DNA from: Nemertoderma westbladi
Taxonomy: Eukaryota; Animalia; Xenacoelomorpha
Reading direction: 5' to 3'
Length of the DNA stretch: 47,786 nucleotides
Assembly (NCBI GenBank): GCA_032718475.1
Contig: JAUCBJ010002009.1
Span: forward strand, 1 to 47,786
Both the position numbers and the translations under genes were made by a program. Below the pieces are notes generated by a model. The model made no database searches and was not told the origin of the DNA. It saw only the letters and a program-made list of their open reading frames with translations. Shown piece by piece: positions 15,501 to 44,820 of this stretch. Positions within the stretch are counted from its first letter, which is position 1. Every line of letters starts with the position of its first letter.

Positions 15501-18500
15501 AATTTGCTTAGCAAAAATTCTGTTGTTTTTAGAGCTGTGAATCTACTATCCACTGTTGGTTGTTCTTTACTAATTTCATTAAAAACCTCCATTATTTGCA
15601 TAAACTGATCAATATGCTTCTCTTCACCAGTTATCATCTCAACGTGTGGCTCTACCCTCAATAAAAATTTATCAAGATCTTTGAGAACCAAGTTTACTTG
15701 ATTAATCAAATACTGTGAAAACACCCAGATATATTGCAAGGCATGTGCTGCAATACTTTGTTTTACAGGGTGCAAGTTAACCCTTATCCAACCTTTATCA
15801 CTGTGGTCTGGAAATGAACACACATCCTGCTTAGCTTTGTAATAAATCTCTAACTCATGTTCAAAGTTTGACAGTGGAGGCATATCACTGTTCAGGCGAT
15901 CTGTGTACAAATTGCCAGTTGTTGTGAGTAATGCATGACGTTTCCATGTAACTGTAGATCTTTGAGAGGTATCAGATGTGGATGTTCTATCACTTCTTTC
16001 ACTTTTAATATTAATTTCATCGAGAGATTTATTTTCCCCAGGTACTTTCAGTTTATAATTGCTTTTTCCAATAAATTGATTTCTTGTCTGGTTGGTGTTA
16101 CATTTTCCGGAAAGAAATTCTTGGAAGACAGCGAATGCATCTTGCTCCCACAAAAATGAAAATTTGTTGTACTGGTCTAATAATACAGTGCATTCCAAAC
16201 AATTTTGGGCAACAATTTCCAATATTTTTTCTCTGAGAGTTATTATCTCCTCATCCGAAGAAATGTAATATGAATAACCATTGGGATCACCACTCAGCAT
16301 ATCAACAAGCACCCCTCTATTAATATACCTTGAAATCCATTCTGAAATGTATTCATCAATGCTCTTCCTGTTCGATATTATTTCCAATGCCGGATTAAAC
16401 TCTAATTTGGACCCATTAAAAAACAAATGGATTTGAAGAACTGGTGTATAAGTCCCTTCGGTCATATTACATTTTACCATTTCATTAAGCATTGACTTTA
16501 TGCTCACCACAGTACATTGTTTTAAACCACCTAGTACCAAGTTATCTATATGCTCTACATACTCCTGCCAAGCAGGGGATGCCCTCGACATTTCACATGC
16601 TTGAAATGACGATTCCAGCACAACATTTATTTTCTTACCAGATGGTCTTATATAACCTTCATGGTTGCGAAATATTGTCTCCTGAGCCAAAGCTAATTGG
16701 TCGATTTCCCAGCAAGGGTCATCTTTCTCACGCCCCTGGAATGCATCAAGTTCTCCCTTAGACCAACTCATTGCTATCTCGATTATTTCGTTACAGTTGG
16801 TTTGAATAATATCTAATGCTTGGTAAAGGTCATGGAGGACGAGAGTCGAGGCTACTTCTATGTAATCAGTGGCATCAATGGATCTCCATGTGAATCGACT
16901 TAATCCTTCTTGAATGACTGAGTCTACCCGAAGCAGTCTGCGCTCAAATAAAGGTCTATCATAGTCATTAATTGCTAATAGCACTGTGTTGTATTTATTG
17001 ACGATGCCCTGCAGTCGTCCATTCATACTGGACATTGTCTGGTAATCAGTAGTTCGCAGTAACTCTTTGGCAGCATCTGGAATGCGGACAGAATGTGGAG
17101 GGCGGCTCAAGTAGTGGATCTCCCGGAGGACTGTCAATAGATTGCGATCTAAATTAACCCTCAAAGTGGAGGGTCGCACATCAATCTCATCGTTGTAATC
17201 CGGACTTGTTAATAATGTTTCCTTTAGTCTGTCCCTTAGTTCGGAGTCGATGGAACTTCGCCATTCCTTAAGAGTCTCATCTTCATAAATTTGAAATTCG
17301 TGCATCAGATCATTGTAGGACTGTCTTATATGAAACCCAATATCTGACTCCAGTCTATGAACACATACTCCTTTTAGTTTGTCCATAACAAAAGTTATTC
17401 TCTGCTTTAGTGCATAGATCCATTTCATACGGCAAACTATCAAAGGCATATTTTTCAATTTTGGAGGCTTTCTTAGCACCTGCTCAAACATTGATCTGAC
17501 TTGCAGTAATTCTTCACTGTAGGCTTCTAGAAGTTTTTCATCAATGTCTGATAGGCTTTGCTGGACAACTTCTCGACCTGTGATACCCTGAAACACCTCC
17601 AAAATTCGCAACTGGCTTGCCATATTAGAACACTGCATAAAACTTTGTCTTAATATATCTGACAATCGGTGCTCCAAAGTTTTCATAACAGTTCTAAACT
17701 CAAAGAAGGCCTTTTCAAATTCCCTCCCATCGGCTTTTAGATTGAATGGCTCTAGAGTTTCTTGTTGTAAATGAACAACGGCTCCTTGAAAAGAGTGATT
17801 AACCTCTCTAACCAGGGCATCTAATGCAGGAGATCCAGCACCTCCAACCTCCGCTGTAGATCTCAGCATCCCAAATTGAAGGAGTGTCTGCGACACTTCA
17901 GATAGGTCGTTACACCTTTCCATGAATCTATTCAACTCTAAGAAACAATGTGAATTACGATTAGGCCAGGAAGATGGGCTCCACAACTTCCTACCTGTCA
18001 ATGGGTATCGCTCCAGGCTGGGTCTCCTTCGATCCAGTCGGTACAGTTTGGTTCGGTACAACTTGGTGGGATAACTCTCCGGTTCATCGTTAGATTGAGC
18101 TGCCAGCTCCACACGATTCAATTCATCCGCTCGTTCCTTCCAGTCTAAGTAGTTACCACGAAAACTGCCACAGATATTCAAGGCTTGGCGGATTTTTTCG
18201 TAGGAGGAATCGATATCGGCGAATAGGTCATCTGGGAGAAAGGTTTTTGCCCGGACTATCACCTCATTGGAAATCAGATTGAGTAGAAAGTTAAAGTTTT
18301 GCTTCTCATGGTAGTAACCGCTGTGCGACCAAATGAGAAATAAGGTGTGGATTAGCGGTGGCAACATAGATATTGTACCTCGAACGCTGAGTGCTACAGT
18401 TAACTCGTCCAGCCAAGGCTCTAATGTTGCTAAAAATCGAATATTTTCGTGAGTCTCGTCTAAAGCTTTATCAATATCTCTACGCGTTTTGATCAATGAC

Positions 18501-18997: not shown

Positions 18998-19394
18998 CTA
19001 AAAATAGCAATAGATAAAAATATCTTGTTTCCATATTTTAATCCCAATAGTTTATCCTCAAAATTTCAATTCAAGTTTTTTTAATCTCACTTCTCAGTGG
19101 TGAATTAGCACACGTTAATTCGTAATGTTTACATCATAAAAAACCTAATTTTGTTGCATATAAAATAATTTTCTAATTTAATTTTTATTTAAATTAAATT
19201 TCATTAACTACATTTTTCTCTTTGGTTCATTATCACACTTTCTTTGCAATCTTAAAATATCAAACACACTCTCATCTTTAACTAACTAACATTGCTTCCA
19301 GTTCTCAAGTAAAAATCATTGATTCCATCCATATCTTCATTCCGTACTGCAGTACTACCGGTACTAACAACATACTTATTCTTTATTAACTAAC

Positions 19395-19709
19395 TTTTTT
19401 CCCAATATTTTTGCGGGTTAGTTTCAGCATGGGTTCTGTTTTAGTAAAGAATACATTCTTCACGGTGATCCCTTGAGGCGGGTTGATACTGGCAATGAGT
19501 TGACCTGACTCCACAATGGCTACAAAGAGACAGTCTACGTTGGGATTGTCACAGAATTCTAGAATATATTCCCGAGTCTGGGGATCCGAGAACAACGATT
19601 TTAATTCGTCATTCCGCGGCCGCAACGAGGTTTGAACTCGCGCTTCCAGCCACCGAAGTCGCTCGTCTAACTCCATCCCGCCTTGCGATTGGGACTCCCT
19701 AACTAACAT
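19395..19709 (-). CDS. Dynein heavy chain-like protein, exon 1
   Basis: ATG at 19709. DERLRWL...EFCD resembles N-termini of outer-arm-type heavy chains. Donor AAA|gttagt at 19395/19394 joins exon 2 in phase 0 across a 397-nt intron. Confidence 0.8.
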
Positions 19710-20850
19710 TCTGTTCGTCGAGTTGAATAATTAATCTCGAAAAATATATTGAACAAGTAAGTTTTTCAAAATGAACGTTATATGCGATTCCATTATTTAT
19801 AATATGTAAATATTAGATTTTACGCTAGAATATAATAAAAATATATAATATTTATAAGCTGCTTAAATTTAACTTAGTTATTATATATTTAAAATCGTCT
19901 ATTTATTTTCTACAACTGTACTTAATTAATAATGTATTACCTACGCATCGTATTATTATTAATTATACATAATGTATGCGATATGGGTTACGGTAATATT
20001 TATACAAATGTTTATTTAATATTTTTTTCAACTATATAAGAAATTGATACATCAGCGGTACAACACGGCTCGGCGAATACGTATAATTATGTAATAAAAT
20101 TATTATTATTAACTTCTAAGATAATTACAAGATAATTATCCTAACATCAATAATAATTATCCTAATTATACTAAGATAATTATATTTTGCTATGAATAAT
20201 AATAATTTTATGACTTAAAGTTGCCTTTATTACATAATTATACGTCTGGCCGTATCACATGGAAATAAATGAGCTTTATTTCACATGTAAATTACTTTTT
20301 TACTAATATATCTTTCTCACATTGTTAAGAAGCAGCTTTACAATAATTAAGTTAATATTAAATGTAAATTCCGCAAAACCTTCAACTTTTCAGATCTATA
20401 AAGCGTCGGAAACGACATCTTGTCGATAATTTCAGTTAACCGAAAATCCCACCAACTGTAAAACGCAAGAAACTTAGACAAAAGATATGAATTGCAATCA
20501 ATTAAATACTAAACGTGATTCTTTAAGACACATTTATTTAATCGATGGTTAATCAACTTTCATTACTTTATTTATCTTTATTATTTGAGGAAATATAATT
20601 TAAAATTTTGAGAGAATTATCATAAAATAATTTTTTTTATCGATAGTACCGGTATGTATCGGACACAAATTGTATTCCCAATGCTAAATAATGTTTAGAT
20701 TGTCGTAACCAAGCAACCATATTAGGTTGCCTGGTATTATATGCTGCCAATAACGATCGACCAATGGGCGCCAAGATGGTACACCAGCGAGGTTTTTCGA
20801 TCCGACACACAATTTGTTTGGCCAAAGAATATTGGGAAAGAATATTATAA

Positions 20851-22935
20851 TTAGGAACCGAGAGGTTCATTACTGTAAGAATTGTTGGCTGATTGATTGA
20901 CTGGCTGGCTGGCTAATCTATAGCCAAAACTACTCTAACGATTTTGATGAAATTTTCACAGCGGCTGGATACCGCGATTCTAAGGTCCCTGATATGTTCC
21001 GCTATTTCGTCCATGAGCCGTGGGCTCGAAAAATAGACATAAACGAAAAAACGCCATAGGCGCAATGGTAAAATATCACCAATAACAGCTGGTGTCGTGA
21101 TGAAAAATGGCTTACGTAATGGATTTCTACACAAGGCTTAGTATAAATCGATGAGGTTGCCAAGATTATTCACTTAGTACACCAATACTGTTTGTTTAGG
21201 CCTTAGGACACTCTGTTAACTGGTTGGTTTAGTTTGAAATCTATTATTGCCTCAGCTGAATTACTCTTCCCAATGCGCACTCTATGGGAATATCTCCCTC
21301 TGCTAATGTAAGCTGAATGACTTAAGTACACAGTGAGTTGGCTACATTAATGTCAACATTTTTGCAAAATGTTTTATTGTTGGACTCTCTGTCAGTCTCC
21401 CCTTCAGAACATTGTATAGGGAATATACTTTAGTTTACTCTACTGTGCCATTCAGCTGAATGGATTTGAGCGATTGCCAAGTAACAGAGTTGGATCATTC
21501 TCTGACCATAGGCAAAGACAGCAAATCTTTTTAAAAAGATACTTTTTCCATGTTTTTTTTCTGACCAAAAATTTCAAAAAGATTTTTTCATAGCCAGTAC
21601 TGTCAATCGATTTGCCATCAAAAATAACGCAAAAAATTTTTTTTGCAAAATTTTAAATTACTGTAAATTTTTGGCGACTGGGGGGGGTCAATTTTTTTCG
21701 ATCCGCTATAACTCCGGAACGCTTTGTCCAAATTCGATGGGGTTTTTATTTTTCAACTTAATTCGATGTCCTCTTTCAGCCTATCCATGTTTCGAAACCC
21801 CAAACAGCGCCGTTCAAAAATTAATTTTTTCTAGTTCTAGAATTTTACAAATTTCAAAAAAGTTGCAGTATTTTATTAACGCCTTTACGGAATTCGATAG
21901 CGTTTTCGATTTTTATATTAAACGCAATATCCTGAATCTCACTAGCCTAGTTTCGCGTCACCAATGCCAAGACTTCATACTTTTTGAGGAACATTTTTCT
22001 AGAATAATTTATTAATAATTATTGTATGAAATATACTTTAGTTTACTCTACTGTGCCATTCAGCTGAATGGATTTGAGCGATTGCCAAGTACAGAGTTGG
22101 ATCATTCTCTGACCATAGGCAAAGACATCAAATCTTTTTAAAAATATACTTTTTCGATGTTTTTTTTTCTGACCAAAAATTAAAAAAAAAATTTTTCGTA
22201 GCCAGTACTGCCAATCGATTCGCCATCAAAAATAACGCAAAAAATTTTTTTTACAAAATTTTAAATTACTGTAAATTTTTGGCGACTGGGGGGGGTCAAT
22301 TTTTTTCGATCCGCTATAACTCCGGAACGCTTTGTCCAAATTCGATGGGGTTTTCATTTTTCAACTTAATTCGATGTCCTCTTTCAGCCTATCCATGTTT
22401 CGAAACCCCAAACAGCGCCGTCCAAAAATTATTTTTTTCTAGTTCTAGAATTTTACAAATTTCAAAAAAGTTGCAGTATTTTATTAACGCCTTTACGGAA
22501 TTCGATAGCGTTTTCGATTTTTATATTAAACGCAATATCCTGAATCTCACTAGCCTAGTTTCGCGTCACCAATGCCAAGATTTCATATTTTTTGAGGAAA
22601 ATTTTTCTAGAATAATTTTTATTTAATTACATTTATAGCGATTTCTTATTACTGATTGCACATGAATTGATGGAGTTTTCAATTTATTAACTAAACACGA
22701 TATCGCGCATCGCACCAGCGTGGTTTCGAAATTCTAAAACGAGGTCTTCACTAGTTGCAGGTCGATTTTGTTCTAGAATTGAGAAACTAATAATAGATCG
22801 AATTTATTAATAATTATTGTATGAAATATGATTGTATTTTTAGATAATTATTAGTTCTATACTAATTCTCGGTGTCTCTTTTATTTAATAAAATAAAAAG
22901 TCGGTTCCTTATCGGGCCGCTAGGCCCGTCACTAG
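20851..22935 (+). mobile_element. Non-autonomous Helentron/Helitron2-type element (HINE/DINE-1-like), copy A
   Basis: Subterminal IRs AGGAACCGA (20853) and TCGGTTCCT (22901); 5' mini-hairpin GAACC-GAGA-GGTTC; TGAT/TGGC microsatellite; CTCTAACGATTTTGATGAAATTTT core; 3' stem-loop CGGGCC-GCTA-GGCCCG followed by CTAG. Confidence 0.75.
21422..22618 (+). repeat. Direct tandem duplication with about 608-bp period inside HINE copy A
   Basis: 21422-~22014 and 22030-~22618 are near identical. The spurious ORFs at 21671 and 22279 are offset by 608 bp. Confidence 0.95.
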
Positions 22936-26068: not shown

Positions 26069-26453
26069 ATTTAAAAATTGTACTACTGTATAAAGGCTAT
26101 TTGGCCTTCCATACAGTAGTGGTTGGCCTTGACAAAATAGCAATATTATAATTTAACTCTAAGTGACAGCCATATCAAAAAAAGGTTCATGGGGGGAGGG
26201 GGGGGGGGGGGGGGGGGGGGGGTGTACCCCTCCCCTGAATAAATAATTCAAAATATAAATTGAGTTACAATTGAAATTTTCTCCAAATTTATATCGAAGC
26301 TACCGCTTCATCAATAACTTTAAACAAGAGAAAAATTGAAATGGAACGTGTTCTTCAGGTTTTCGTTTAATTTTTAGATTAATTTACGTTTAATTTCGTT
26401 TAATTTAGACAAATAAATATTCGCGAAAATAACTTTAAATTAGTCATATAATC

Positions 26454-26693
26454 TTATGATGACAAAACTAATTGTGAGTCATCCCTACTTGGGGCCTCTA
26501 TAGGCGGCAGTGGGGGGTAACCAGTTAATTCAGCCTGTCGAGCAATGTCCTCATCCTTGCTGATAAATAGAACACCTGCATCTTTATTGGCTATTTCTCC
26601 AGCTAATCGGCGTGGGGGTGGGAATCGTGTTAGGTCACTGGAGGATTTACTGACTTTGGCGCCGTTCATTAAAGCAAACAAGTGTCTCAGCAC
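26454..26693 (-). CDS. BBOF1: BBOF1/CCDC176 exon 9 (last coding exon)
   Basis: attatag|GTG acceptor; VLRHLFALMNG matches the BBOF1 motif VLRLLFAKMNG; stop at 26454. Confidence 0.9.
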   Translation of the reverse strand: MLRHLFALMNGAKVSKSSSDLTRFPPPRRLAGEIANKDAGVLFISKDEDIARQAELTGYPPLPPIEAPSRDDSQLVLSS

Positions 26694-26849: not shown

Positions 26850-27035
26850 CTTTTCTTTCTGTTCCCATGTCAGGTCGCCAATATCGACATTCTCTACAAC
26901 ATCCTGCCAATCAGTTGCGGCGGCGATATCGTCTTCCACGCTGTTTGTCGAGGCTTCCATACCCTCGTGGAATGTCCGCACCAGCGGGTAGTCGCCTTTA
27001 CCTGAGTGCGCCATCAGCATTTTATCTCTGTACGC
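26850..27035 (-). CDS. BBOF1: BBOF1 exon 8
   Basis: gttag|GCG ... AAG|gtaggt; YPLVRTF, STNSV and NVDIGDLTWEQKEK are BBOF1 signature motifs. Confidence 0.93.
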
Positions 27036-27160: not shown

Positions 27161-27340
27161 CCTTTCGGCATCCTTTTTATACTGTTGCTTGTTTCGTTTA
27201 ATCTGATCTCTCACGTACTCTAACGAGTCAACGAAGAACTTCTCAACCTCAGTTCTCTGTTCTAGAATATTCCGAGCGAGGCGTTTTATTTTCTTGCCTT
27301 CCTTGTCTTTTAATTCTAACATTTTTTTATATTTTCCGGC
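27161..27340 (-). CDS. BBOF1: BBOF1 exon 7
   Basis: ttttcag|GCC ... AGG|gttaga; AGKYKKMLELKDKE...LARNILEQRTEVEKFF. Confidence 0.92.
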
Positions 27341-27414
27341 CTGAAAAAATAAATTGTTCTACATTTACCGTTAAGGACCTAATTGTCAAAAAACGGACGA
27401 CAATTACTGAATAT

Positions 27415-28874
27415 ATTTTCACTCTCACCTCCCCTGATGCACCAACTGTGACAATCTACGGTTTACACTCTATCCTCCTCTGATACTCGAACTATGTCTA
27501 TCTTCACTCTTACGGTAACTCCTCAGTAGCTCCCACTGTGTCTCTCTTCAATCTTACCTCCTCTGTAGCTCCCACTGTGTCTCTCTTCACTCTTACCTCC
27601 TCAGTAGCTCCCACTGTGTCTCTCTTCACTCTTACCTCCTCAGTAGCTCACACTGTGTCTCTCTTCACTATTACCTCCTATGTAGCTCCCACTGTGTCTC
27701 TCTTCACTCTTACCTCCTCAGTAGCTCCCACTGTGTCTCTCTTCACTCCTACCGCCTCAGTAGCTCCCACTGTGTCTCTCTTCACTCTTACCTCCTCAGT
27801 AGCTCACACTGTGTCTCTCTTCACTATTACCTCCTATGTAGCTCCCACTGTGTCTCTCTTCAATCTTACCTCCTCAGTAGCTCCCACTGTGTCTCTCTTC
27901 ACTCTTACCTCCTCAGTAGCTCCCACTGTGTCTCTCTTCACTCTTACCTCCTCAGTAGCTCACACTGTGTCTCTCTTCACTATTACCTCCTATGTAGCTC
28001 CCACTGTGTCTCTCTTCAATCTTACCTCCTCAGTAGCTCCCACTGTGTCTCTCTTCACTCTTACCTCCTCAGTAGCTCCCACTGTGTCTCTCTTCACTCT
28101 TACCTCCTATGTAGCTCCCACTGTGTCTCTCTTCACTATTACCTCCTATGTAGCTCCCACTGTGTCTCTCTTCACTATTACCTCCTCAGTAGCTCCCACT
28201 GTGTCTCTCTTCACTATTACCTCCTCAGTAGCTCCCACTGTGTCTCTCTTCACTATTACCTCCTCAGTAGCTCACACTGTGTCTCTCTTCACTCTTACCT
28301 CCTCAGTAGCTCCCACTGTGACTCTCTTCACTCTTACCACCTCAGTAGCTCCCACTGTGTCTCTCTTCACTCTTACCTCCTATGTAGCTCCCACTGTGTC
28401 TCTCTTCAATCTTACCTCCTATGTAGCTCCCACTGTGTCTCTATTCACTATTACCTCCTATGTAGCTCCCACTGTGTCTCTCTTCACTATTACCTCCTCA
28501 GTAGCTCCCACTGTGTCTCTCTTCACTCTTACCTCCTCAGTAGCTCCCACTGTGTCTCTCTTCACTCTTACCTCCTCAGTAGCTCCCACTGTGTCTCTCT
28601 TCAATCTTACCTCCTCAGTAGCTCCCACTGTGTCCCTCTTCACTCTTACCGCCTCAGTAGCTCCCACTGTGTCCCTCTTCACTCTTACCTCCTCAGTAGC
28701 TCCCACTGTGTCTCTCTTCACTCCTACCGCCTCAGTAGCTCCCACTGTGTCTCTCTTCACTCTTACCTCCTCTGTAGCTCCCACTGTGTCTCTCTCCACT
28801 CTTACCTCCTCTGTAGCTCCCACTGTGTCTCTCTTCACTATTACCTCCTCTGTAGCTCCCACTGTGTCTCTCTT
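27415..28874. repeat. 39-bp minisatellite, distal arm (about 35 units plus 2 degenerate relic units) in BBOF1 intron 6
   Basis: Unit CACTCTTACCTCCTCAGTAGCTCCCACTGTGTCTCTCTT; degenerate copies at ~27415-27520. Confidence 0.97.
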
Positions 28875-30268
28875 AACACCTAACACTCTATGGTTCTTTT
28901 CGGGGAATCTCATTGATCTCGATTGCTGCTAAGCTATACAATAGGATTCTATTCAATCGCATCAGGGATCCCATTGAGAGACTGCTCCGTGGAAATCAGA
29001 ATGGGTTCCGTAAAGGTCGTGGGACCATAGAGCCCATTTTGGCACTTAAAAGGATAATTGAAGAGTTATCAAAAAAGAAAGACAGGCATCTGGCTGTTAT
29101 CTTTGTTGACTTCTTCAAGGCCTTTGATTCAGTCTCTCGCTCACGTATGTTCAGCATACTTTCATTATATGGGATTCCAGATGAACTTATTGCAGCAATC
29201 AGATCAGTATACGATGGTTCGACAACATTTGTGTCTACTGTTGATGGTGACACAGGACCATTTGAAGTGTTATGGGGCGTCCTCCAAGGAGACACACTTG
29301 CACCATTCTTGTTCATTATTGTGGTTGACTATGTTCTACGCATGTCCTTAGATCATTATAATGATGATGGGGTGATGATAACTCCACCTACTGGCTCCAG
29401 AAGTCGAGGAAATCCTGCCAAGTACCTAACTGATCTAGACTTTGCTGATGACTTAGGAGTACTCTCAGAATCATTAGAGGGAGCCCAACGGCTCTTCAGC
29501 TCATTAGAACATGCTGCTTCTAGTGTTGGTCTTTTTATTAACTCCAGAAAGACCAAAATTCTGACAGTTAACTTTGAAAGTCCTCAGCAAGTCTCTGATC
29601 GGATGAGCATAAGCTCAAAGGATGGTATGCTTGAGCATGTGGACGACTTCTGTTACCTGGGATCATGGATCCGGAAGTCAGGTGAGGACCTTCGAATACG
29701 TAAGGGAAAGGCATGGGCAGCCTTGAATAGGCTTTCCAGGATTTGGAAGTCACCGAGAATTAATCGGAAACTTAAGGTCCGATTATTTAGAGCAGCAGTA
29801 GTTCCAGTACTCCTCTACGGGAGTCCATGCTGGGCTCTAACTGCTGAGGACACCAAATCTCTGGATGGCACATTCACAAGAATGCTACGCCGGGTTCATT
29901 GTGTCAAGTACAATGCACACATCTCCAACCAGACACTATATAACATTGGAGGTGTCTCATTGGTTCCCCCAAGCTTGACACTAGAACAAAATCGCCTCCG
30001 CTTTGCAGGACATTGCTTTCGCCGGGAGGACCAGCCAGTGCATAATCTTGTACTTTGGCAGCCTCATGGAGTGAATAAGCATGGTGGACCGCCCATGACT
30101 TTCTTGAGACGCATCTTAAAGGACACTGGCCTTAAAGATGCGGATAATCTAGCAAATGTCATGGGTGATAGGGAGTTGTGGTGGTGCAATTTTGTTGACA
30201 AGCCGGCACAGCATTCTTAAAAATGCAGCTGCAATGCAGCATGCCGATCCTAGTAGTAGTAGTAGTAG
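28875..30268 (+). mobile_element. 5'-truncated RTE-clade-like LINE inserted in the minisatellite, antisense to BBOF1
   Basis: RT ORF, short 3' UTR and (TAG)6 tail at 30251-30268; TSD TGTCTCTCTT at 28865-28874 and 30269-30278. Confidence 0.93.
28877..30220 (+). CDS. Reverse transcriptase (5'-truncated ORF, no endonuclease domain, no true start codon)
   Basis: FRGISL, QNGFRKGR, FVDFFKAFDSV, GVLQGDTLAPFLF, DLDFADD, FCYLGS, RLRFAGHCFR; frame is uninterrupted from the truncation point. Confidence 0.9.
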   Translation, partial: HLTLYGSFRGISLISIAAKLYNRILFNRIRDPIERLLRGNQNGFRKGRGTIEPILALKRIIEELSKKKDRHLAVIFVDFFKAFDSVSRSRMFSILSLYGIPDELIAAIRSVYDGSTTFVSTVDGDTGPFEVLWGVLQGDTLAPFLFIIVVDYVLRMSLDHYNDDGVMITPPTGSRSRGNPAKYLTDLDFADDLGVLSESLEGAQRLFSSLEHAASSVGLFINSRKTKILTVNFESPQQVSDRMSISSKDGMLEHVDDFCYLGSWIRKSGEDLRIRKGKAWAALNRLSRIWKSPRINRKLKVRLFRAAVVPVLLYGSPCWALTAEDTKSLDGTFTRMLRRVHCVKYNAHISNQTLYNIGGVSLVPPSLTLEQNRLRFAGHCFRREDQPVHNLVLWQPHGVNKHGGPPMTFLRRILKDTGLKDADNLANVMGDRELWWCNFVDKPAQHS

Positions 30269-33200
30269 TGTCTCTCTTCACTCTTACCTCCTCTGTAGCT
30301 CCCACTGTGTCTCTCTTCACTATTACCTCCTATGTAGCTCCCACTGTGTCTCTCTTCACTCTTACCGCCTCAGTAGCTCACACTTTGTCTCTCTTCACTC
30401 TTACCTCCTCTGTAGCTCCCACTGTGTCTCTCTTCACTATTACCTCCTATGTAGCTCCCACTGTGTCTCTCTTCACTCTTACCGCCTCAGTAGCTCTCAC
30501 TGTGTCTCTCTTCACTCTTACCTCCTCTGTAGCTCCCACTGTGTCTCTCTTCACTCTTACCGCCTCAGTAGCTCACACTGTGTCTCTCTTCACTCTTACC
30601 TCCTCTGTAGCTCCCACTGTGTCTCTCTTCACTATTACCTCCTATGTAGCTCCCACTGTGTCTCTCTTCACTCTTACCGCCTCAGTAGCTCACACTGTGT
30701 CTCTCTTCACTCTTACTTCCTCAGTAGCTCCCACTGTGTCTCTCTTCACTCTTACCTCCTCTGTAGCTCCCACTGTGTCTCTCTTCACTATTACCTCCTA
30801 TGTAGCTCCCACTGTGTCTCTCTTCACTCTTACCTCCTCAGTAGCTCCCACTGTGTCTCTCTTCACTCTTACCTCCTCAGTAGCTCCCACTGTGTCTCTC
30901 TTCACTCCTACCGCCTCAGTAGCTCCCACTGTGTCTCTCTTCACTCTTACCGCCTCAGTAGCTCACACTGTGTCTCTCTTCACTCTTACCTCCTCAGTAG
31001 CTCCCACTGCGTCTCTCTTCACTCTTACCTCGTCAGTAGCTCCGACTGTGTCTCTCTTCACTCTTACCTCCTCAGTAGCTCCCACCGTGTCTCTCTTCAC
31101 TCTTACCGCCTCAGTAGCTCCCACTGTGTCTCTCTTCAATCTTACCTCCTATGTAGCTCCCACTATGTCTCTCTTCACTATTACCTCCTATGTAGCACCC
31201 ACTGTGTCTCTCTTCACTATTACCTCCTATGTAGCTCCCACTGTGTCTCTCTTCACTCTTACCTCCTATGTAGCTCCCACTGTGTCTCTCTTCACTCTTA
31301 CCACCTCAGTAGCTCCCACTGTGTCTCTCTTCAATCTTACCTCCTCAGTAGCTCCCACTGTGTCTCTCTTCACTCTTACCGCCTCAGTAGCTCACACTGT
31401 GTCTCTCTTCACTCTTACCTCCTCAGTAGCTCCCACTGTGTCTCTCTTCACTCTTACCTCCTCAGTAGCTCCCACTGTGTCTCTCTTCACTCTTACCTCC
31501 TCAGTAGCTCCCACTGTGTCTCTCTTCAATCTTACCTCCTATGTAGCTCCCACTGTCTCTATCTTCACTATTACCTCCTATGTAGCTCCCACTGTGTCTC
31601 TCTTCACTCCTACCGCCTCAGTAGCTCCCACTGTGTCTCTCTTCACTCTTACCGCCTCAGTAGCTCCCACTGTGTCTCTCTTCACTCTTACCTCCTCAGT
31701 AGCTCCCACTGTGTCTCTCTTCACTATTACCTCCTATGTAGCTCCCACTGTGTCTCTCTTCACTCTTACCTCCTCAGTAGCTCCCACTGTGTCTCTCTTC
31801 ACTCTTACCTCCTATGTAGCTCCCACTGTGTCTCTCTTCACTCTTACCTCCTCTGTAGCTCCAACTGTGTCTCTCTTCACTCTTACCTCCTCAGTAGCTC
31901 CCACTGTGTCTCTCTTCACTCTTACCTCCTCAGTAGCTCCCACTGTGTCTCTCTTCACTCTTACCTCCTCTGTAGCTCCCACTGTGTCTCTCTTCACTCT
32001 TACCTCCTATGTAGCTCCCACTGTGTCTCTCTTCACTCTTACCTCCTCTGTAGCTCCCACTGTGTCTCTCTTCACTCTTACCTCCTATGTAGCTCCCACT
32101 GTGTCTCTCTTCACTCTTACCTCCTCAGTAGCTCCCACTGTGTCTCTCTTCACTCTTACCTCCTCAGTAGCTCCCACTGTGTCTCTCTTCACTCTTACCT
32201 CCTCAGTAGCTCCCACTGTGTCTCTCTTCACTCTTACCTCCTCAGTAGCTCCCACTGTGTCTCTCTTCACTCTTACCTCCTCTGTAGCTCCCACTGTGTC
32301 TCTCTTCACTCTTACCTCCTATGTAGCTCCCACTGTGTCTCTCTTCACTCTTACCTCCTCAGTAGCTCCCACTGTGTCTCTCTTCACTCTTACCTCCTCA
32401 GTAGCTCCCACTGTGTCTCTCTTCACTCTTACCTCCTCAGTAGCTCCCACTGTGTCTCTCTTCACTCTTACCTCCTCAGTAGCTCCCACTGTGTCTCTCT
32501 TCACTCTTACCTCCTCTGTAGCTCCCACTGTGTCTCTCTTCACTATTACCTCCTATGTAGCTCCCACTGTGTCTCTCTTCACTCTTACCTCCTCAGTAGC
32601 TCCCACTGTGTCTCTCTTCAATCTTACCTCCTATGTAGCTCCCACTGTGTCTATCTTCACTATTACCTCCTATGTAGCTCCCACTGTGTATATCTTCACT
32701 ATTACCTCCTATGTAGCTCCCACTGTGTCTCTCTTCACTCTTACCGCCTCAGTAGCTCCCACTGTGTCTCTCTTCACTCTTACCTCCTCAGTAGCTCCCA
32801 CTGTGTCTCTCTTCACTCTTACCTCCTCAGTAGCTCCCACTGTGTCTCTCTTCACTCTTACCGCCTCAGTAGCTCCCACTGTGTCTCTCTTCACTCTTAC
32901 CTCCTCAGTAGCTCCCACTGTGTCTCTCTTCACTCTTACCTCCTCTGTAGCTCCCACTGTGTCTCTCTTCACTCTTACCTCCTCAGTAGCTCCCACTGTG
33001 TCTCTCTTCACTCTTACCTCCTCATGTAGCTCCCACTGTGTCTCTCTTCACTCTTACCTCCTCTGTAGCTCCCACTGTGTCTCTCTTCACTCTTACCTCC
33101 TCAGTAGCTCCCACTGTGTCTCTCTTCACTCTTACCTCCTCAGTAGCTCCCACTGTGTCTCTCTTCACTCTTACCTCCTCAGTAGCTCCCACTGTGTCTC

Positions 33201-35787
33201 TCTTCACTCTTACCTCCTCATGTAGCTCCCACTGTGTCTCTCTTCACTCTTACCTCCTCAGTAGCTCCCACTGTGTCTCTCTTCACTCTTACCTCCTCAG
33301 TAGCTCCCACTGTGTCTCTCTTCACTCTTACCTCCTCTGTAGCTCCCACTGTGTCTCTCTTCACTCTTACCTCCTCAGTAGCTCCCACTGTGTCTCTCTT
33401 CACTCTTACCTCCTCATGTAGCTCCCACTGTGTCTCTCTTCACTATTACCTCCTATGTAGCTCCCACTGTGTCTCTCTTCACTATTACCTCCTCTGTAGC
33501 TCCCACTGTGTCTCTCTTCACTCTTACCTCCTCAGTAGCTCCCACTGTGTCTCTCTTCACTCTTACCTCCTCTGTAGCTCCCACTGTGTCTCTCTTCACT
33601 CTTACCTCCTCAGTAGCTCCCACTGTGTCTCTCTTCACTCTTACCTCCTCTGTAGCTCCCACTGTGTCTCTCTTCACTATTACCTCCTATGTAGCTCCCA
33701 CTGTGTCTCTCTTCACTCTTACCTCCTCTGTAGCTCCCACTGTGTCTCTCTTCACTCTTACCTCCTCTGTAGCTCCCACTGTGTCTCTCTTCACTCTTAC
33801 CTCCTCTGTAGCTCCCACTGTGTCTCTCTTCACTATTACCTCCTATGTAGCTCCCACTGTGTCTCTCTTCACTATTACCTCCTCAGTAGCTCCCACTGTG
33901 TCTCTCTTCACTCTTACCTCCTCAGTAGCTCCCACTGTGTCTCTCTTCACTCTTACCTCCTCAGTAGCTCCCACTGTGTCTCTCTTCACTCTTACCTCCT
34001 CAGTAGCTCCCACTGTGTCTCTCTTCACTCTTACCTCCTCAGTAGCTCCCACTGTGTCTCTCTTCACTCTTACCTCCTCAGTAGCTCCCACTGTGTCTCT
34101 CTTCACTCTTACCTCCTCATGTAGCTCCCACTGTGTCTCTCTTCACTCTTACCTCCTCAGTAGCTCCCACTGTGTCTCTCTTCAATCTTACCTCCTCAGT
34201 AGCTCCCACTGTGTCTCTCTTCACTCTTACCTCCTCTGTAGCTCCCACTGTGTCTCTCTTCACTATTACCTCCTCATGTAGCTCCCACTGTGTCTCTCTT
34301 CACTATTACCTCCTCAGTAGCTCCCACTGTGTCTCTCTTCACTCTTACCTCCTCAGTAGCTCCCACTGTGTCTCTCTTCACTCTTACCTCCTCAGTAGCT
34401 CCCACTGTGTCTCTCTTCACTCTTACCTCCTATGTAGCTCCCACTGTGTCTCTCTTCACTCTTACCTCCTATGTAGCTCCCACTGTGTCTCTCTTCACTA
34501 TTACCTCCTATGTAGCTCCCACTGTGTCTCTCTTCACTCTTACCTCCTCAGTAGCTCCCACTGTGTCTCTCTTCACTCTTACCTCCTCAGTAGCTCCCAC
34601 TGTGTCTCTCTTCACTCTTACCTCCTCATGTAGCTCCCACTGTGTCTCTCTTCACTCTTACCTCCTCAGTAGCTCCCACTGTGTCTCTCTTCACTCTTAC
34701 CTCCTCAGTAGCTCCCACTGTGTCTCTCTTCACTCTTACCTCCTCAGTAGCTCCCACTGTGTCTCTCTTCACTCTTACCTCCTATGTAGCTCCCACTGTG
34801 TCTCTCTTCACTATTACCTCCTATGTAGCTCCCACTGTGTCTCTCTTCACTCTTACCTCCTCAGTAGCTCCCACTGTGTCTCTCTTCACTCTTACCTCCT
34901 CAGTAGCTCCCACTGTGTCTCTCTTCACTCTTACCTCCTATGTAGCTCCCACTGTGTCTCTCTTCACTCTTACCTCCTCAGTAGCTCCCACTGTGTCTCT
35001 CTTCACTCTTACCTCCTCAGTAGCTCCCACTGTGTCTCTCTTCACTCTTACCTCCTCTGTAGCTCCCACTGTGTCTCTCTTCACTCTTACCTCCTCAGTA
35101 GCTCCCACTGTGTCTCTCTTCACTCTTACCTCCTCATGTAGCTCCCACTGTGTCTCTCTTCACTCTTACCTCCTCATGTAGCTCCCACTGTGTCTCTCTT
35201 CAATCTTACCTCCTCTGTAGCTCCCACTGTGTCTCTCTTCACTCTTACCTCCTCAGTAGCTCCCACTGTGTCTCTCTTCACTCTTACCTCCTCATGTAGC
35301 TCCCACTGTGTCTCTCTTCACTCTTACCTCCTATGTAGCTCCCACTGTGTCTCTCTTCACTCTTACCTCCTCTGTAGCTCCCACTGTGTCTCTCTTCACT
35401 CTTACCTCCTCATGTAGCTCCCACTGTGTCTCTCTTCACTCTTACCTCCTCAGTAGCTCCCACTGTGTCTCTCTTCACTCTTACCTCCTCAGTAGCTCCC
35501 ACTGTGTCTCTCTTCACTCTTACCTCCTCAGTAGCTCCCACTGTGTCTCTCTTCACTCTTACCTCCTCAGTAGCTCCCACTGTGTCTCTCTTCACTCTTA
35601 CCTCCTCAGTAGCTCCCACTGTGTCTCTCTTCACTCTTACCTCCTCAGTAGCTCCCACTGTGTCTCTCTTCACTCTTACCTCCTCAGTAGCTCCCACTGT
35701 GTCTCTCTTCACTCTTACCTCCTCTGTAGCTCCCACTGTGTCTCTCTTCACTCTTACCTCCTCAGTAGCTCCCACTGTGTCTCTCTT
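30269..35787. repeat. 39-bp minisatellite, proximal arm (about 141 units), overlapping the 3' end of BBOF1 exon 6
   Basis: Same unit as the distal arm. Minus strand reads AAGAGAGACACAGTGGGAGCTACTGAGGAG|GTAAGAGTG and ends within the exon at GCA AAG AGA GAC. Confidence 0.98.
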
Positions 35788-35916
35788 TGCCCGCCTAAGT
35801 ATCTCGTCTCTCTCTGCTTCGAACTCTTGCACTACATGGGTCAGCGACCTTTCCAATGACTCTATCTTGGCTTGCATTGCCTTGATCTGTTCCCTTTGTT
35901 TCTTCGCTTCAGTTAC
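35758..35916 (-). CDS. BBOF1: BBOF1 exon 6 (using the first donor)
   Basis: tttcatag|GTA ... GAG|gtaaga; VTEAKKQREQIKAMQAKIESLERSLTHVVQEFEAERDEILRRAKRDTVGATEE; joins exon 7 in phase 0. Confidence 0.9.
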
Positions 35917-36162: not shown

Positions 36163-36316
36163 CTTTTCCAATACAAGGAGATCATTTAACTCCCTGTCCC
36201 CAGCCATCCTCTCGTTTTCATTCGATAGAACTGAATTCATTTTCTTCAGTGATTCTTCTTTGGATATGTGATATTGTAAAGCCTGACTCTTACGAACATT
36301 TTCCTTGTATACAGAT
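36163..36316 (-). CDS. BBOF1: BBOF1 exon 5
   Basis: gggaaag|A TCT ... AAG|gtaaca; SVYKENVRKSQALQYH...ELNDLLVLEK; phase is compatible with exons 4 and 6. Confidence 0.85.
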
Positions 36317-37575: not shown

Positions 37576-37769
37576 CTCGTGGTCTCGTCCATGTTCTCAA
37601 TAGCCTCATTATGAGCCCTCTCTGCTAGCTCAGCTACTTTCTGATTAGCTTCATGTTGTAGTCGCGCCTTCTCCTCAAAAAATTTATGTTCCGATGACTG
37701 TAGAGCCTGTTGATGCTCTACATTTGTCTCAAACATGGTGTCTTTAATACCATCCAACTCTTTTTGCAT
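37576..37769 (-). CDS. BBOF1: BBOF1 exon 4
   Basis: ttttag|ATG ... AG|gttggt; EHKFFEEKARLQHEA...LAERAHNEAI. Confidence 0.93.
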
Positions 37770-38656: not shown

Positions 38657-38830
38657 CTGAGCCCTCTTTCTTCTGAATTCTTTAACCATCTTCAACTCGT
38701 TTTGCATTAATTGCACTTCATTGGTGCGTTGATTAAGAGCTTCCTCCAGATTTGATACTTTTAGAGTAAAGTCCTCGGCTAGTTTCTGACGATCTTCCCT
38801 AGCCTGTCTGCGGGCCTCCTTTAGTTGTTC
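38657..38830 (-). CDS. BBOF1: BBOF1 exon 3
   Basis: ttattag|GAA ... CAG|gtaggt; EQLKEARRQAREDRQKL...ELKMVKEFRRKRAQ. Confidence 0.9.
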
Positions 38831-39485: not shown

Positions 39486-39642
39486 TTGCAGTGACTCTAT
39501 TTTATCCTCCTTAGCTATATCCTGTTGCTTTAGATAAGTGATGACGTCTATGGTGTCCTTCTCCGTTCGTTCTAGATGACTGATCAGATTGTCGTTATCT
39601 AATAGTAGCCTCTTGGCATTCTCGCGAAACTCCAGGCGGGAT
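39486..39642 (-). CDS. BBOF1: BBOF1 exon 2
   Basis: atttag|A TCC ... CAA|gtaagt; SRLEFRENAKRL...TEKDTIDVITYLKQQD. Confidence 0.9.
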
Positions 39643-40462: not shown

Positions 40463-41490
40463 CTCGTAGGTGTGATGCAGGGTGATTGTCTAAGTTCTAT
40501 TCTGTTTGCCTTATTCCTAAATGATTTGGAAGCGGAATTGGCAAAAACGGGTTACGCTGGTTTGGATATTGGCTACCCTACAATATTCGCTAGATATTGG
40601 CTACCCTACAATATTCGCTAGATATTGGCTACCCTACAATATTCGCTAGATATTGGCTACCCTACCATATTCGCTAGATATTGGCCACCCTACAATATTC
40701 GCTAGATATTGGCTACCCTACAATATTCGCTAGATATTGGCCACCCTACAATATTCGCTAGATATTGGCTACCCTACAATATTCGCTAGATATTGGCTAC
40801 CCTACAATATTCGCTAGATATTGGCTACCCTACAATATTCGCTAGATATTGGCTACCCTACAATATTCGCTGGATATTGGCCACCCTACAATATTCGCTA
40901 GATATTGGCTATTCTACAATATTCGCTAGATATTGGCCACCCTACAATATTCGCTAGATATTGGCTACCCTACAATATTCGCTAGATATTGGCTACCCTA
41001 CAATATTCGCTAGATATTGGCTACCCTACAATATTCGCTAGATATTGGCTACCCTACAATATTCGCTAGATATTGTACATAATTTTGCAGATTACTGGTG
41101 GTTGGATGTAATCCGTATTTTCAGAAACAAGGGGCCGGTGTGTCCCAATCAGAATGTTGGTTTTAAAAAGGAAAAATACTAGATGTCGTGCACTACTACA
41201 TCTATTTGGGTGTGGTTTTTTCTTATACTGGTAACTTCGCCAAAGCCCATTATAAATTATGGATGTGAGGTATGGGGTGGGGATGGAACAATGCAACTGA
41301 TATAGAAATAGTGCATATAAGTTTCCTCAAACGAGCCTTGGGTGTAAAGACCACTAAGACAAGTACATCAAATCTCATGGTGTATGGAGAAGCGGGTACT
41401 TTTCCTTTGTCACTGCACCATAAGGTGAACACTATAAAGTTCTGGGTTCGAATAATTGAAATGCCCGATAAAAGACTCACAAAGTGCAAT
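40463..41490 (+). pseudogene. Degraded LINE reverse transcriptase fragment in BBOF1 intron 1
   Basis: GVMQGDCLSSILFALFLNDLE at ~40469; NYGCEVWG at ~41255; VHISFLKRALGVK...NLMVYGEAGTFPL...IKFW; frameshifted and internally deleted. Confidence 0.85.
40565..41075. repeat. 28-bp minisatellite, about 18 copies
   Basis: Unit GATATTGGCTACCCTACAATATTCGCTA, nearly invariant. Confidence 0.97.
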
Positions 41491-41927
41491 TCATAATTAT
41501 AGATTACCATTTTCATAGACATCCTTCCTTACCGTTATACCATCAATTATTTTCAACAAATATGGTTCGGGTCTGGAAAAATCTAGCAATCTATATATAT
41601 AAGGCACTAAAACTACGCGCAGCTAGAATTAATAGTAACGAAATGTGTAACGTAGTAAATACTCTGTATGAGTCTGACGAGTCAGCGCTATTAGTTATAT
41701 CGTAACCAATAATAATTCTCTATACCGTTTTTTTTTTTTATTTTTTTGTTATATTTAAAATTACATTTGTTTAGGTGTTTAGTTGGGTGTGGGGTTTCCA
41801 GGGACTATTTTTGGTTGTATTTTGGTAGTTAGTGCGTACAATGGTAAGATCAACAATAGTATTAGTGACTTGTTGTCATGAATATAATAATAATTATTAA
41901 CTATCGGTATATTATACTCAGACTCAC

Positions 41928-42076
41928 TTGTCCATTATGTCCAGTTTTGATTCCCATAGCTTCGCATTGGCAGCAGCAAGTTTTTCAACACTTTCCTTTT
42001 TTCTTTCCCCACCTTTTCCCTTACCACCTTTTTTCCCTTTTTTCTTCCCACCGCCACCTTTTTTCTTTTTAGGCAT
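41928..42076 (-). CDS. BBOF1: BBOF1 exon 1 (start)
   Basis: MPKKKKGGGGKKKGKK...AAANAKLWESKLDIMD, AA|gtgagt. The K/G-rich N-terminus and ANAxLWE motif are typical of BBOF1. The nine exons sum to 1593 nt (530 aa plus stop). Confidence 0.92.
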
Positions 42077-43474: not shown

Positions 43475-44820
43475 AATAAGGCCTAACGTTAATAGGTAGG
43501 GCTACTGCTAATCCCGTACTACACAGCTGAAATCAACGTTAATAGGTAGGGCTACTGCTAATCCCGTACTACACAGACGTTAATAGGTAGGGCTACTGCT
43601 AATCCCGTACTACACAGCTGAAATCAACGTTAATAGGTAGGGCTACTGCTAATCCCGTACTACACAGACGTTAATAGGTAGGGCTACTGCTAATCCCGTA
43701 CTACACAGCTGAAATCAACGTTAATAGGTAGGGCTACTGCTAATCCCGTACTACACAGCTGAATAATAAGGCCTAACGTTAATAGGTAGGGCTACTGCTA
43801 ATCCTGTACCGGTACTACACAGACGTTAATAGGTAGGGCTACTGCTAATCCCGTACTACACAGCTGAAATCAACGTTAATAGGTAGGGCTACTGCTAATA
43901 CCGTACTACACAGACGTTAATAGGTAGGGCTACTGCTAATACCGTACTACACAGACGTTAATAGGTAGGGCTACTGCTAATACCGTACTACACAGACGTT
44001 AATAGGTAGGGCTACTGCTAATCCCGTACTACACAGCTGAATAATAAGGCCTAACGTTAATAGGTAGGGCTACTGCTAATCCTGTACCGGTACTACACAG
44101 ACGTTAATAGGTAGGGCTACTGCTAATACCGTACTACACAGACGTTAATAGGTAGGGCTACTGCTAATCCCGTACTACACAGCTGAAATCAACGTTAATA
44201 GGTAGGGCTATTGCTAATCCCGTACTACACAGACGTTAATAGGTAGGGCTACTGCTAATCCCGTACTACACAGCTGAAATCAACGTTAATAGGTAGGGCT
44301 ACTGCTAATCCCGTACTACACAGCTGAAATCAACGTTAATAGGTAGGGCTACTGCTAATCCCGTACTACACAGCTGAATAATAAGGCCTAACGTTAATAG
44401 GTAGGGCTACTGCTAATCCCGTACTACACAGCTGAATAATAAGGCCTAACGTTAATAGGTAGGGCTACTGCTAATCCCGTACTACACAGCTGAATAATAA
44501 GGCCTAACGTTAATAGGTAGGGCTACTGCTAATCCCGTACTACACAGCTGAAATCAACGTTAATAGGTAGGGCTAATGCTAATCCCGTACTACACACCTG
44601 AAATCAACGTTAATAGGCAGGGCTACTGCTAATCCCGTACTACACACCTGAAATCAACGTTAATAGGTAGGGCTACTGCTAATCCCGTACTACACAGCTG
44701 AAATCAACGTTAATAGGTAGGGCTACTGCTAATCCCGTACTACACAGCTGAATAATAAGGCCTAACGTTAATAGGTAGGGCTACTGCTAATCCCGTACCG
44801 GTACTACACAGCTGAAATCA
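43475..44820. repeat. Modular minisatellite: about 27 copies of a 41-bp core with 0-, 9- or 17-bp linkers
   Basis: Core ACGTTAATAGGTAGGGCTACTGCTAATCCCGTACTACACAG; linkers are none, CTGAAATCA or CTGAATAATAAGGCCTA. Confidence 0.96.

What the first reader, a model, noticed from the sequence alone, without database searches (positions are those of the whole stretch)
27415..35787. Tandem array of about 175 in-frame 5' splice donors built from the BBOF1 exon 6/intron 6 junction
Seen: on the gene strand the 39-bp unit is the last 30 nt of exon 6 (KRDTVGATEE) plus the first 9 intron nt (GTAAGAGTG). Essentially every unit therefore carries a GAG|GTAAGA-type donor with its exonic context. 39 nt is 13 codons and exon 7 starts in phase 0. 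The first donor (35758/35757) gives the same EFE-to-KD spacing that I recall for human BBOF1. Eight further donors precede the first stop (35410). Inference: donor choice could add 0-8 copies of VRVKRDTVGATEE to a coiled-coil basal-body protein, while more distal donors would include stops and feed NMD. The array is either a length/dosage dial or a striking case of first-donor fidelity against about 175 decoys. It has inflated an intron of about 88 nt (relic donor 27428 to acceptor 27341) to 8417 nt.
Basis: partly seen in the sequence, partly recalled or inferred. Interest (0 to 1): 0.88.

Follow-up and report, generated by a model that had tools for sequence, protein, structure and literature searches.

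The report
Repeated splice donor in BBOF1 intron
A 39-base piece spanning the end of an exon and its splice signal is copied about 175 more times in the next intron of a cilia gene, yet an assembled transcript joins the first signal straight to the next exon, so it is likely a drifting repeat of a kind already known from human and lancelet genes.

Summary
It also stands in DNA of a second sample. It is not an in-frame array: 20 of 176 donors are in phase and 9 are stop-free. One transcript contig (X4, depth 566) runs unbroken from unique exon 6 into exon 7, so the first donor is used. That junction gives the spacing found in 119 of 120 homologues, which argues against a length dial. A second RNA run (X5) holds a one-unit loop at mRNA-like depth. 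About 1-6% unspliced or DNA background would explain it, but leak to nearby donors is not excluded; the control could not be run. Closest known: exon/intron-boundary minisatellites (human F7, CBS, 6-16, LMNB2; ABCA7 up to ~427 units; amphioxus 'mirages'). This scan has reported the same kind on other DNA several times. Verdict: large new member of a known kind, likely near-neutral.

The parts
41928..42076 (-). BBOF1 exon 1, coding part (ATG at 42076)
39486..39642 (-). BBOF1 exon 2
   Evidence: model; homology of whole model
38657..38830 (-). BBOF1 exon 3
   Evidence: model
37576..37769 (-). BBOF1 exon 4
   Evidence: Pfam DUF4515 E=4e-4, below the curated cut-off; model
36163..36316 (-). BBOF1 exon 5
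   Evidence: model
35758..35916 (-). BBOF1 exon 6; its last 30 nt (35758-35787) are the exonic part of the repeat unit
   Evidence: hit P0003, named BBOF1-like; the loose end of RNA contigs equals 35788-35817
35752..35760 (-). Authentic 5' splice site (cut 35758/35757), the one used in the transcript contig
   Evidence: (X4 record 17)
35410..35757 (-). Stop-free read-through zone: donors 2-9 could add 1-8 copies of a 13-aa unit
   Evidence: use not shown
30268..35787 (-). Proximal block of the 39-bp minisatellite, about 141 copies; holds all ten 40-bp frameshifting units (33057-35445)
28875..30267 (+). 5'-truncated non-LTR retroelement (447-aa open RT frame, short trinucleotide tail) inserted in a unit, with 11-bp target duplication at 30268-30278 and 28864-28874; gives the intron's only AATAAA/ATTAAA on the gene strand (29539)
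   Evidence: (RVT_1 E=1.4e-26)
27519..28874 (-). Distal block of the minisatellite, about 35 copies, more diverged
27429..27513 (-). Two decayed units at the distal edge
   Evidence: alignments; shuffle P=0.001 for 27429-27474
27341..27428 (-). Relic donor and 88-nt unique intron end with the acceptor of exon 7
   Evidence: ancestral state inferred
27161..27340 (-). BBOF1 exon 7 (180 nt, phase 0 at both ends)
   Evidence: RNA joints; 47% identical to P0003, E=2e-17
26850..27035 (-). BBOF1 exon 8
   Evidence: RNA joints, model
26454..26693 (-). BBOF1 exon 9, coding part to the stop
   Evidence: RNA joint, model

Best explanation
This is a minisatellite whose unit spans the exon 6/intron 6 boundary of BBOF1, and the assembled mRNA uses the first donor, so the other 175 donors are likely near-silent passengers in a drifting repeat. 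Shown: the unit structure, two blocks, LINE insert, decayed distal edge, divergence rising with distance from the exon, presence in a second sample's DNA, and a first-donor transcript contig. Inferred: it began as a 39-bp tandem duplication over the donor and grew by slippage or unequal exchange, with most recent turnover next to the exon (40-bp variant confined to the proximal third). The splicing machinery likely takes the most upstream donor, as tested for human F7. Rare use of donors 2-9 would add 13-aa units; use of any more distal donor would put a premature stop in the mRNA and is predicted to be cleared by NMD, which would keep the array cheap enough to persist.
For:: X4 record 17 (1888 nt, depth 566) is one contig covering unique exon 6 (loose end identical to 35788-35817), the shared 30-mer and exons 7-9; 0 of the 3 records laid from X4 came from the array. 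X5 also has an exon-6 contig ending in the shared 30-mer and an exon-7 contig starting with it; anchor spacing across the junction is 43 aa in the first-donor model and in 119 of 120 homologues (42 in one); 20 of 176 donors in phase, 9 stop-free; divergence rises with distance (Spearman 0.32, P=2e-5); stop-free runs of 10 and 7 units occur deep in the array, so the first 8 clean units need no selection (2-4% by simple nulls that ignore the gradient). GT never varies, but 21 of 39 positions vary, P=0.21. The window holds other unrelated arrays (28-bp x18, 41-50-bp x27). Precedent.
Against:: X5 holds a 68-nt loop contig (one more unit between two copies of the 30-mer) at depth 30.3 beside exon contigs at 29.4 and 46.4; node minus loop leaves only about 12 for spliced flow at the junction, so in-frame leak could be sizeable there. 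X4 comes from a sample (S3) whose array allele is unseen: it may be short or absent, so its clean contig need not reflect a 176-donor allele. Contigs drop minor forms. Only two RNA-like runs from two studies; no raw reads, no NMD block. Neutrality itself was not tested.
Confidence: 0.78

Rival explanations
1. Length-dependent dosage effect without adaptive purpose: long alleles lower correct BBOF1 mRNA through intron retention, NMD-bound distal donor use, in-frame skipping of exon 7 (180 nt), or early polyadenylation at the AATAAA in the antisense LINE, as ABCA7's VNTR does for its neighbouring exon.
For: ABCA7: one-unit retention and in-frame exon 19 skipping were found next to a donor-bearing VNTR. 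Exon 7 is phase 0 at both ends. X5's loop shows array-containing molecules in a sample whose DNA carries the array. X5 depth is lower on the exon-6 side than the exon-7 side, which is uninformative but not contrary.
Against: No contig joins exon 6's end to exon 8 in X4 or X5 (table 5; absence in contigs is weak). X4 shows abundant full-length mRNA. About 1-6% unspliced or DNA background explains X5's loop.
Confidence: 0.12
2. Functional length dial: donors 2-9 are used in a regulated way to add 1-8 copies of a 13-aa unit to the coiled coil.
For: The first eight units are stop-free and in phase; 2.3% of 8-unit windows are clean. X5's loop is of the kind such transcripts would make.
Against: Junction spacing is fixed in 119 of 120 homologues from cnidarians to mammals, none longer, and no tandem 13-mer was found in any of the 120. 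13 is not a multiple of 7, so an insert would shift a heptad register (established knowledge; register not modelled here). X4's deep contig is unbranched. The clean proximal run fits the homogeneity gradient; a clean run of 10 lies deep in the array. Frameshifting 40-bp units begin at unit 9.
Confidence: 0.05
3. Assembly artefact: the array is inflated or invented by the assembler.
For: Exact length is not verified by long reads here. Depth ratios in a second sample suggest 24-55 (up to 113 per haplotype) copies of the commonest words against about 109 in the window, rough and 2-fold discordant between runs.
Against: Array words are at hundreds-fold depth in DNA runs X2 and X3 of another sample with its own SNPs. 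No N in the window; units carry ordered, region-specific variants, a decayed edge and a LINE with a clean target duplication.
Confidence: 0.05

Closest known systems
Human F7 IVS7 37-bp VNTR (Borensztajn et al. 2006, PMC1557585; seen: abstract, synopsis, introduction, six passages)
   Same: First unit spans the exon/intron boundary; identical downstream donors; only the most upstream one is used.
   Different: 5-9 copies against 176; F7 unit has 4 exonic nt against 30; here the unit is 13 codons, so the first 8 extra donors would be in frame; mechanism was tested by mutation in F7, not here.
Human ABCA7 intron 18 25-bp VNTR (De Roeck et al. 2018, PMC5954066; seen: start of abstract, nine passages)
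   Same: Each unit carries the donor GT; alleles of about 12 to 427 units (298-10,678 bp), so the size here has a precedent; retention of one unit is seen.
   Different: ABCA7 unit starts at the GT and is out of frame; length affects exon skipping and disease risk; here no effect was measured, and a LINE splits the array.
Human 6-16 (25 pseudo-sites), CBS IVS13, LMNB2, PDGF intron 4 minisatellites (seen only as summarised in the introduction of PMC1557585)
   Same: Reiterated donor; use limited to the first one (LMNB2, PDGF) or first three (6-16, CBS).
   Different: 10-25 copies; whether the two nearest donors leak here is open.
Amphioxus 'mirages' in Adh3, globins, PGBD5 (PMC3087553, seven passages; PMC3902484, one passage; the original Adh3 paper PMC117041 was not held)
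   Same: Invertebrate tandem repeats over exon/intron boundaries, concerted evolution inside with diverged edge units, no reported disturbance of splicing.
   Different: The globin examples have 3-6 units; this one is far longer and in a lineage that a quick BBOF1 tree could not place.

Membership tests
Exon/intron-boundary (donor-reiterating) minisatellites, F7/CBS/LMNB2/ABCA7/'mirage' type | Tandem unit of minisatellite size whose first copy includes the authentic splice donor | tested here: met
   39-bp unit = 30 exonic + 9 intronic nt
Exon/intron-boundary (donor-reiterating) minisatellites, F7/CBS/LMNB2/ABCA7/'mirage' type | Donor sequence reiterated in the following intron | tested here: met
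   176 GT donors, 127 identical to the authentic GAG|GTAAGA context counting itself
Exon/intron-boundary (donor-reiterating) minisatellites, F7/CBS/LMNB2/ABCA7/'mirage' type | Most upstream donor dominates in mRNA | tested here: met
   X4 record 17 unbroken from unique exon 6 to exon 7; caveat: that sample's allele is unseen, contigs only
Exon/intron-boundary (donor-reiterating) minisatellites, F7/CBS/LMNB2/ABCA7/'mirage' type | Copy number varies between alleles (VNTR) | tested here: inconclusive
   Depth ratios 24 and 55 against about 109 in the window; contig depths are no copy number
Exon/intron-boundary (donor-reiterating) minisatellites, F7/CBS/LMNB2/ABCA7/'mirage' type | Concerted evolution within the array, diverged edge units | tested here: met
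   gradient and region-confined variants
Exon/intron-boundary (donor-reiterating) minisatellites, F7/CBS/LMNB2/ABCA7/'mirage' type | Downstream donors are functional when the first is lost (shown for F7) | not testable with these tools
   needs a minigene
   none in X4; ambiguous loop in X5
   spacing 43 in 119 of 120 homologues, 42 in one; comparative, not experimental
BBOF1/CCDC176 | Full-length homology and DUF4515 domain | tested here: met
   530-aa model about 50% identical to the closest named BBOF1 proteins; exon 4 hits DUF4515 at E=4e-4, under the curated cut-off as a lone exon

The most novel reading that the evidence does not exclude
In animals with the long allele, donors 2-9 are used at an appreciable level (the X5 loop), giving BBOF1 isoforms with 1-8 extra 13-aa units in a coiled coil whose length is otherwise fixed across animals, while distal donors feed NMD, so array length sets both isoform mix and dose of a cilia-orientation protein.
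Probability: 0.1. Interest if true: 0.65.

Novelty: new member of a known kind. Interest (0 to 1): 0.27.

Why it matters
If the best reading holds, it is a large invertebrate example showing that a first donor wins over 175 near-identical downstream copies, 72 of them with the same 30 exonic bases, which extends the F7 result to another lineage and gives a natural test of first-come donor choice. Because the first eight alternatives are in frame and escape NMD, leak here could be measured without NMD bias. It does not change what is known: the class, the first-donor rule and arrays of this size are in print. If the ladder reading held, it would be an unusual way to vary the length of a conserved coiled coil.

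Tried and rejected
No whole genome is held, so the genome-wide frequency of such arrays and other copies of the unit could not be counted. The look-up of sequencing runs listed no run on record as RNA; X4 and X5 proved spliced only when laid. A control for DNA or pre-mRNA carry-over in X5 was not obtained, so the loop's origin stays open. Single-exon homologue searches found nothing (0 of 89 and 0 of 18 candidates); PDB searches and the ESM Atlas gave nothing usable. Selection to keep GT: rejected, P=0.21. Selection to keep the first eight units open: not supported once the gradient and a 10-unit clean run elsewhere are counted. Array reshaping the exon's coding end by conversion: the 10 aa are unusually diverged (2.8% of windows lower), but the next 10 aa in exon 7, outside the array, are about as diverged, so not attributed. 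Higher-order repeat: longest repeated block 6 units against at most 5 in 60 shuffles, weak. Recursive or internal acceptors: every unit edge is AG|GT, but no AG in the intron has 11 or more pyrimidines in the 15 nt before it, a cut-off the real acceptor also missed, so the scan is uninformative; units are 77% purine. Heptad-phase count was too noisy to use. Quick tree leaves the protein on a long unplaced branch (careful search unfinished). Absence of variant-tail junction contigs was not used as evidence, as contigs drop variants. Papers PMC117041 and PMC3737724 were not held. PMC10078293 (12 passages) added nothing specific. No supplements were read; those of PMC10078293 may list more boundary repeats.

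Full report
Observation. Tandem Repeats Finder reports two 39-bp blocks, 30268-35787 (141.3 copies, 96% matches) and 27519-28874 (34.8 copies, 94%). On the minus strand the unit is the last 30 nt of an exon plus the first 9 nt of the intron. A scan found 177 donor-like starts, one of them a stray hit in the insert, leaving 176 with the authentic donor: 127 GAG|GTAAGA, 30 GAG|GTAATA, 11 GCG|GTAAGA, 4 GCG|GTAGGA and 4 others. 'In-frame' is not: ten 40-bp units shift the frame, so 20 of 176 donors are in phase and 9 of 176 are in phase and stop-free.

The gene. Nine GT-AG exons give an open 530-aa frame. Exon 6 found one hit among 1.84 billion representatives (P0003, E=6.7e-4), named BBOF1-like; with it 639 relatives were found and 120 listed. 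Exon 7 is 47% identical to P0003, and the model is about 50% identical to the closest homologues. A quick tree leaves it on a long branch outside the sampled cnidarian, mollusc, ambulacrarian and chordate groups, so the animal is unplaced. That BBOF1 keeps cilia oriented rests on a title in a reference list; that it is a coiled coil is recalled. Other introns are 125-2285 nt.

Anatomy and history. The gap between the blocks is a 1393-bp, 5'-truncated retroelement on the opposite strand: 447-aa open frame, RVT_1 E=1.4e-26, short trinucleotide tail, 11-bp target duplication inside a unit. It inserted into an existing array (inferred from the duplication). Divergence from consensus rises with distance from the exon (0.75 differences per unit proximally, 2.1 distally; Spearman 0.32, P=2e-5). 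The 40-bp variant lies only in the proximal third and the GCG variant only beyond it. Two decayed units and a relic donor at 27428, 88 nt from the acceptor, close the distal edge. This is the pattern of a minisatellite turning over mostly beside the exon (inference). The gene strand is 40% G, 10% C, which could favour R-loops and instability (speculation). The window holds other, unrelated arrays.

DNA in another sample. X2 and X3 (DNA, one sample, with alleles unlike the window's) show summed depth 5093 and 2483 on the array edge against 26.7 and 3.8 beside it. The array is therefore real and shared. Single pieces give 24- and 55-fold single-copy depth against about 109 expected from the window (assuming their one differing letter is the consensus base): a rough hint of length variation only.

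RNA. X4 and X5 are not on record as RNA but skip introns 7 and 8 exactly. X4 record 17 (1888 nt, depth 566) covers exons 9-7, the shared 30-mer and then letters identical to unique exon 6 (35788-35817); 1059 nt precede the 30-mer, fitting 957 coding nt plus a 102-nt leader. None of the 3 records laid from X4 came from the array. That is first-donor splicing. Limits: contigs drop minor forms, and the array allele of X4's sample is unseen. In X5 (same sample label as X2/X3) 4 records were laid: exon-6 side (29.4), shared node (42), exon-7 side (46.4) and a 68-nt loop holding one more unit (30.3). The loop's words occur 77 times per array, so 0.39 whole-array molecules per base, about 1% of mRNA depth, or 2-6% if that sample's array is shorter, would make it. 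Ladder transcripts would make the same loop, and node minus loop leaves only about 12 for spliced flow, so the contigs cannot decide. A control for carry-over was not obtained. One per cent background in X4 would have given a loop near depth 438; none is seen, so X4 is either very clean or from a short allele.

Protein constraint. Between two anchors on either side of the junction the first-donor model has 43 residues, as do 119 of 120 homologues; one has 42, none more, and none has a tandem 13-mer. This argues against a useful 13-aa insert. The clean first eight units look unlikely under simple nulls (2-4%), but a clean run of 10 lies deeper and the proximal units are the most uniform. GT invariance is not significant (P=0.21).

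Mechanism. Shown: structure, sharing, first-donor mRNA. Inferred: origin by a 39-bp duplication over the donor, growth by slippage or unequal exchange, choice of the most upstream donor, NMD of distal-donor products. Confidence 0.78; length-dependent dosage effect 0.12; regulated dial 0.05; length artefact 0.05.

Comparison. Borensztajn et al. (PMC1557585; abstract, synopsis, introduction, six passages) describe this architecture in human F7, show by mutation that downstream donors work but do not compete, and list 6-16, CBS, LMNB2 and PDGF, with leak limited to the two nearest sites. ABCA7's 25-bp VNTR carries the donor GT in each unit and reaches about 427 units, 10,678 bp, with one-unit retention and exon skipping (PMC5954066; nine passages). 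Amphioxus 'mirages' are the invertebrate case (PMC3087553, seven passages; PMC3902484, one passage). A search for BBOF1 with 'tandem repeat' and 'intron' found 0 papers; BBOF1 alone found 65, 15 listed, none on this by title. Earlier notes of this scan list 12 findings with these words in at least 8 genomes, 8 shown; none match this sequence or genome. They are unchecked notes, used only as leads.

Verdict. A real, large, new member of a known class, with first-donor use shown in one deep transcript contig and minor leak open. What is particular here is the in-frame proximal run, the 30-nt exonic context and the LINE inside. Interest 0.27.

Noticed in passing
window 3578-18997 (-), with a likely upstream exon at 19386-19730: A single uninterrupted 5139-aa open frame (15.4 kb) encoding a dynein heavy chain-like protein (DHC_N1, DHC_N2, AAA_6-9, MT, Dynein_C). 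By eye the first and fourth P-loops look degenerate, as in DNHD1-like chains (recalled). A near-intronless giant exon directly downstream of BBOF1.
   Followed up: partly
window 28875-30267 (+): Young-looking 5'-truncated LINE with an intact 447-aa RT frame inside the array; may be polymorphic; supplies the intron's only AATAAA on the gene strand (29539).
   Followed up: partly
window 40565-41075 and 43485-44798: Two more minisatellites: 28-bp x18 in BBOF1 intron 1 and a 41-50-bp x27 array about 1.4 kb upstream of the start codon.
   Followed up: no
window ~26360-26400: All four laid runs continue past 26401 with letters unlike the window, and a 15-base piece of them is absent from the window: the window's BBOF1 3' UTR allele differs here, near a 10-bp tandem repeat.
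   Followed up: partly
window 21440-22650: Two tandem copies of a roughly 580-bp element between BBOF1 and the dynein gene (near-identical frames at 21512-22015 and 22078-22626).
   Followed up: no
window 41250-41530: Fragment resembling the end of a LINE reading frame in BBOF1 intron 1 (resemblance recalled, not tested).
   Followed up: no
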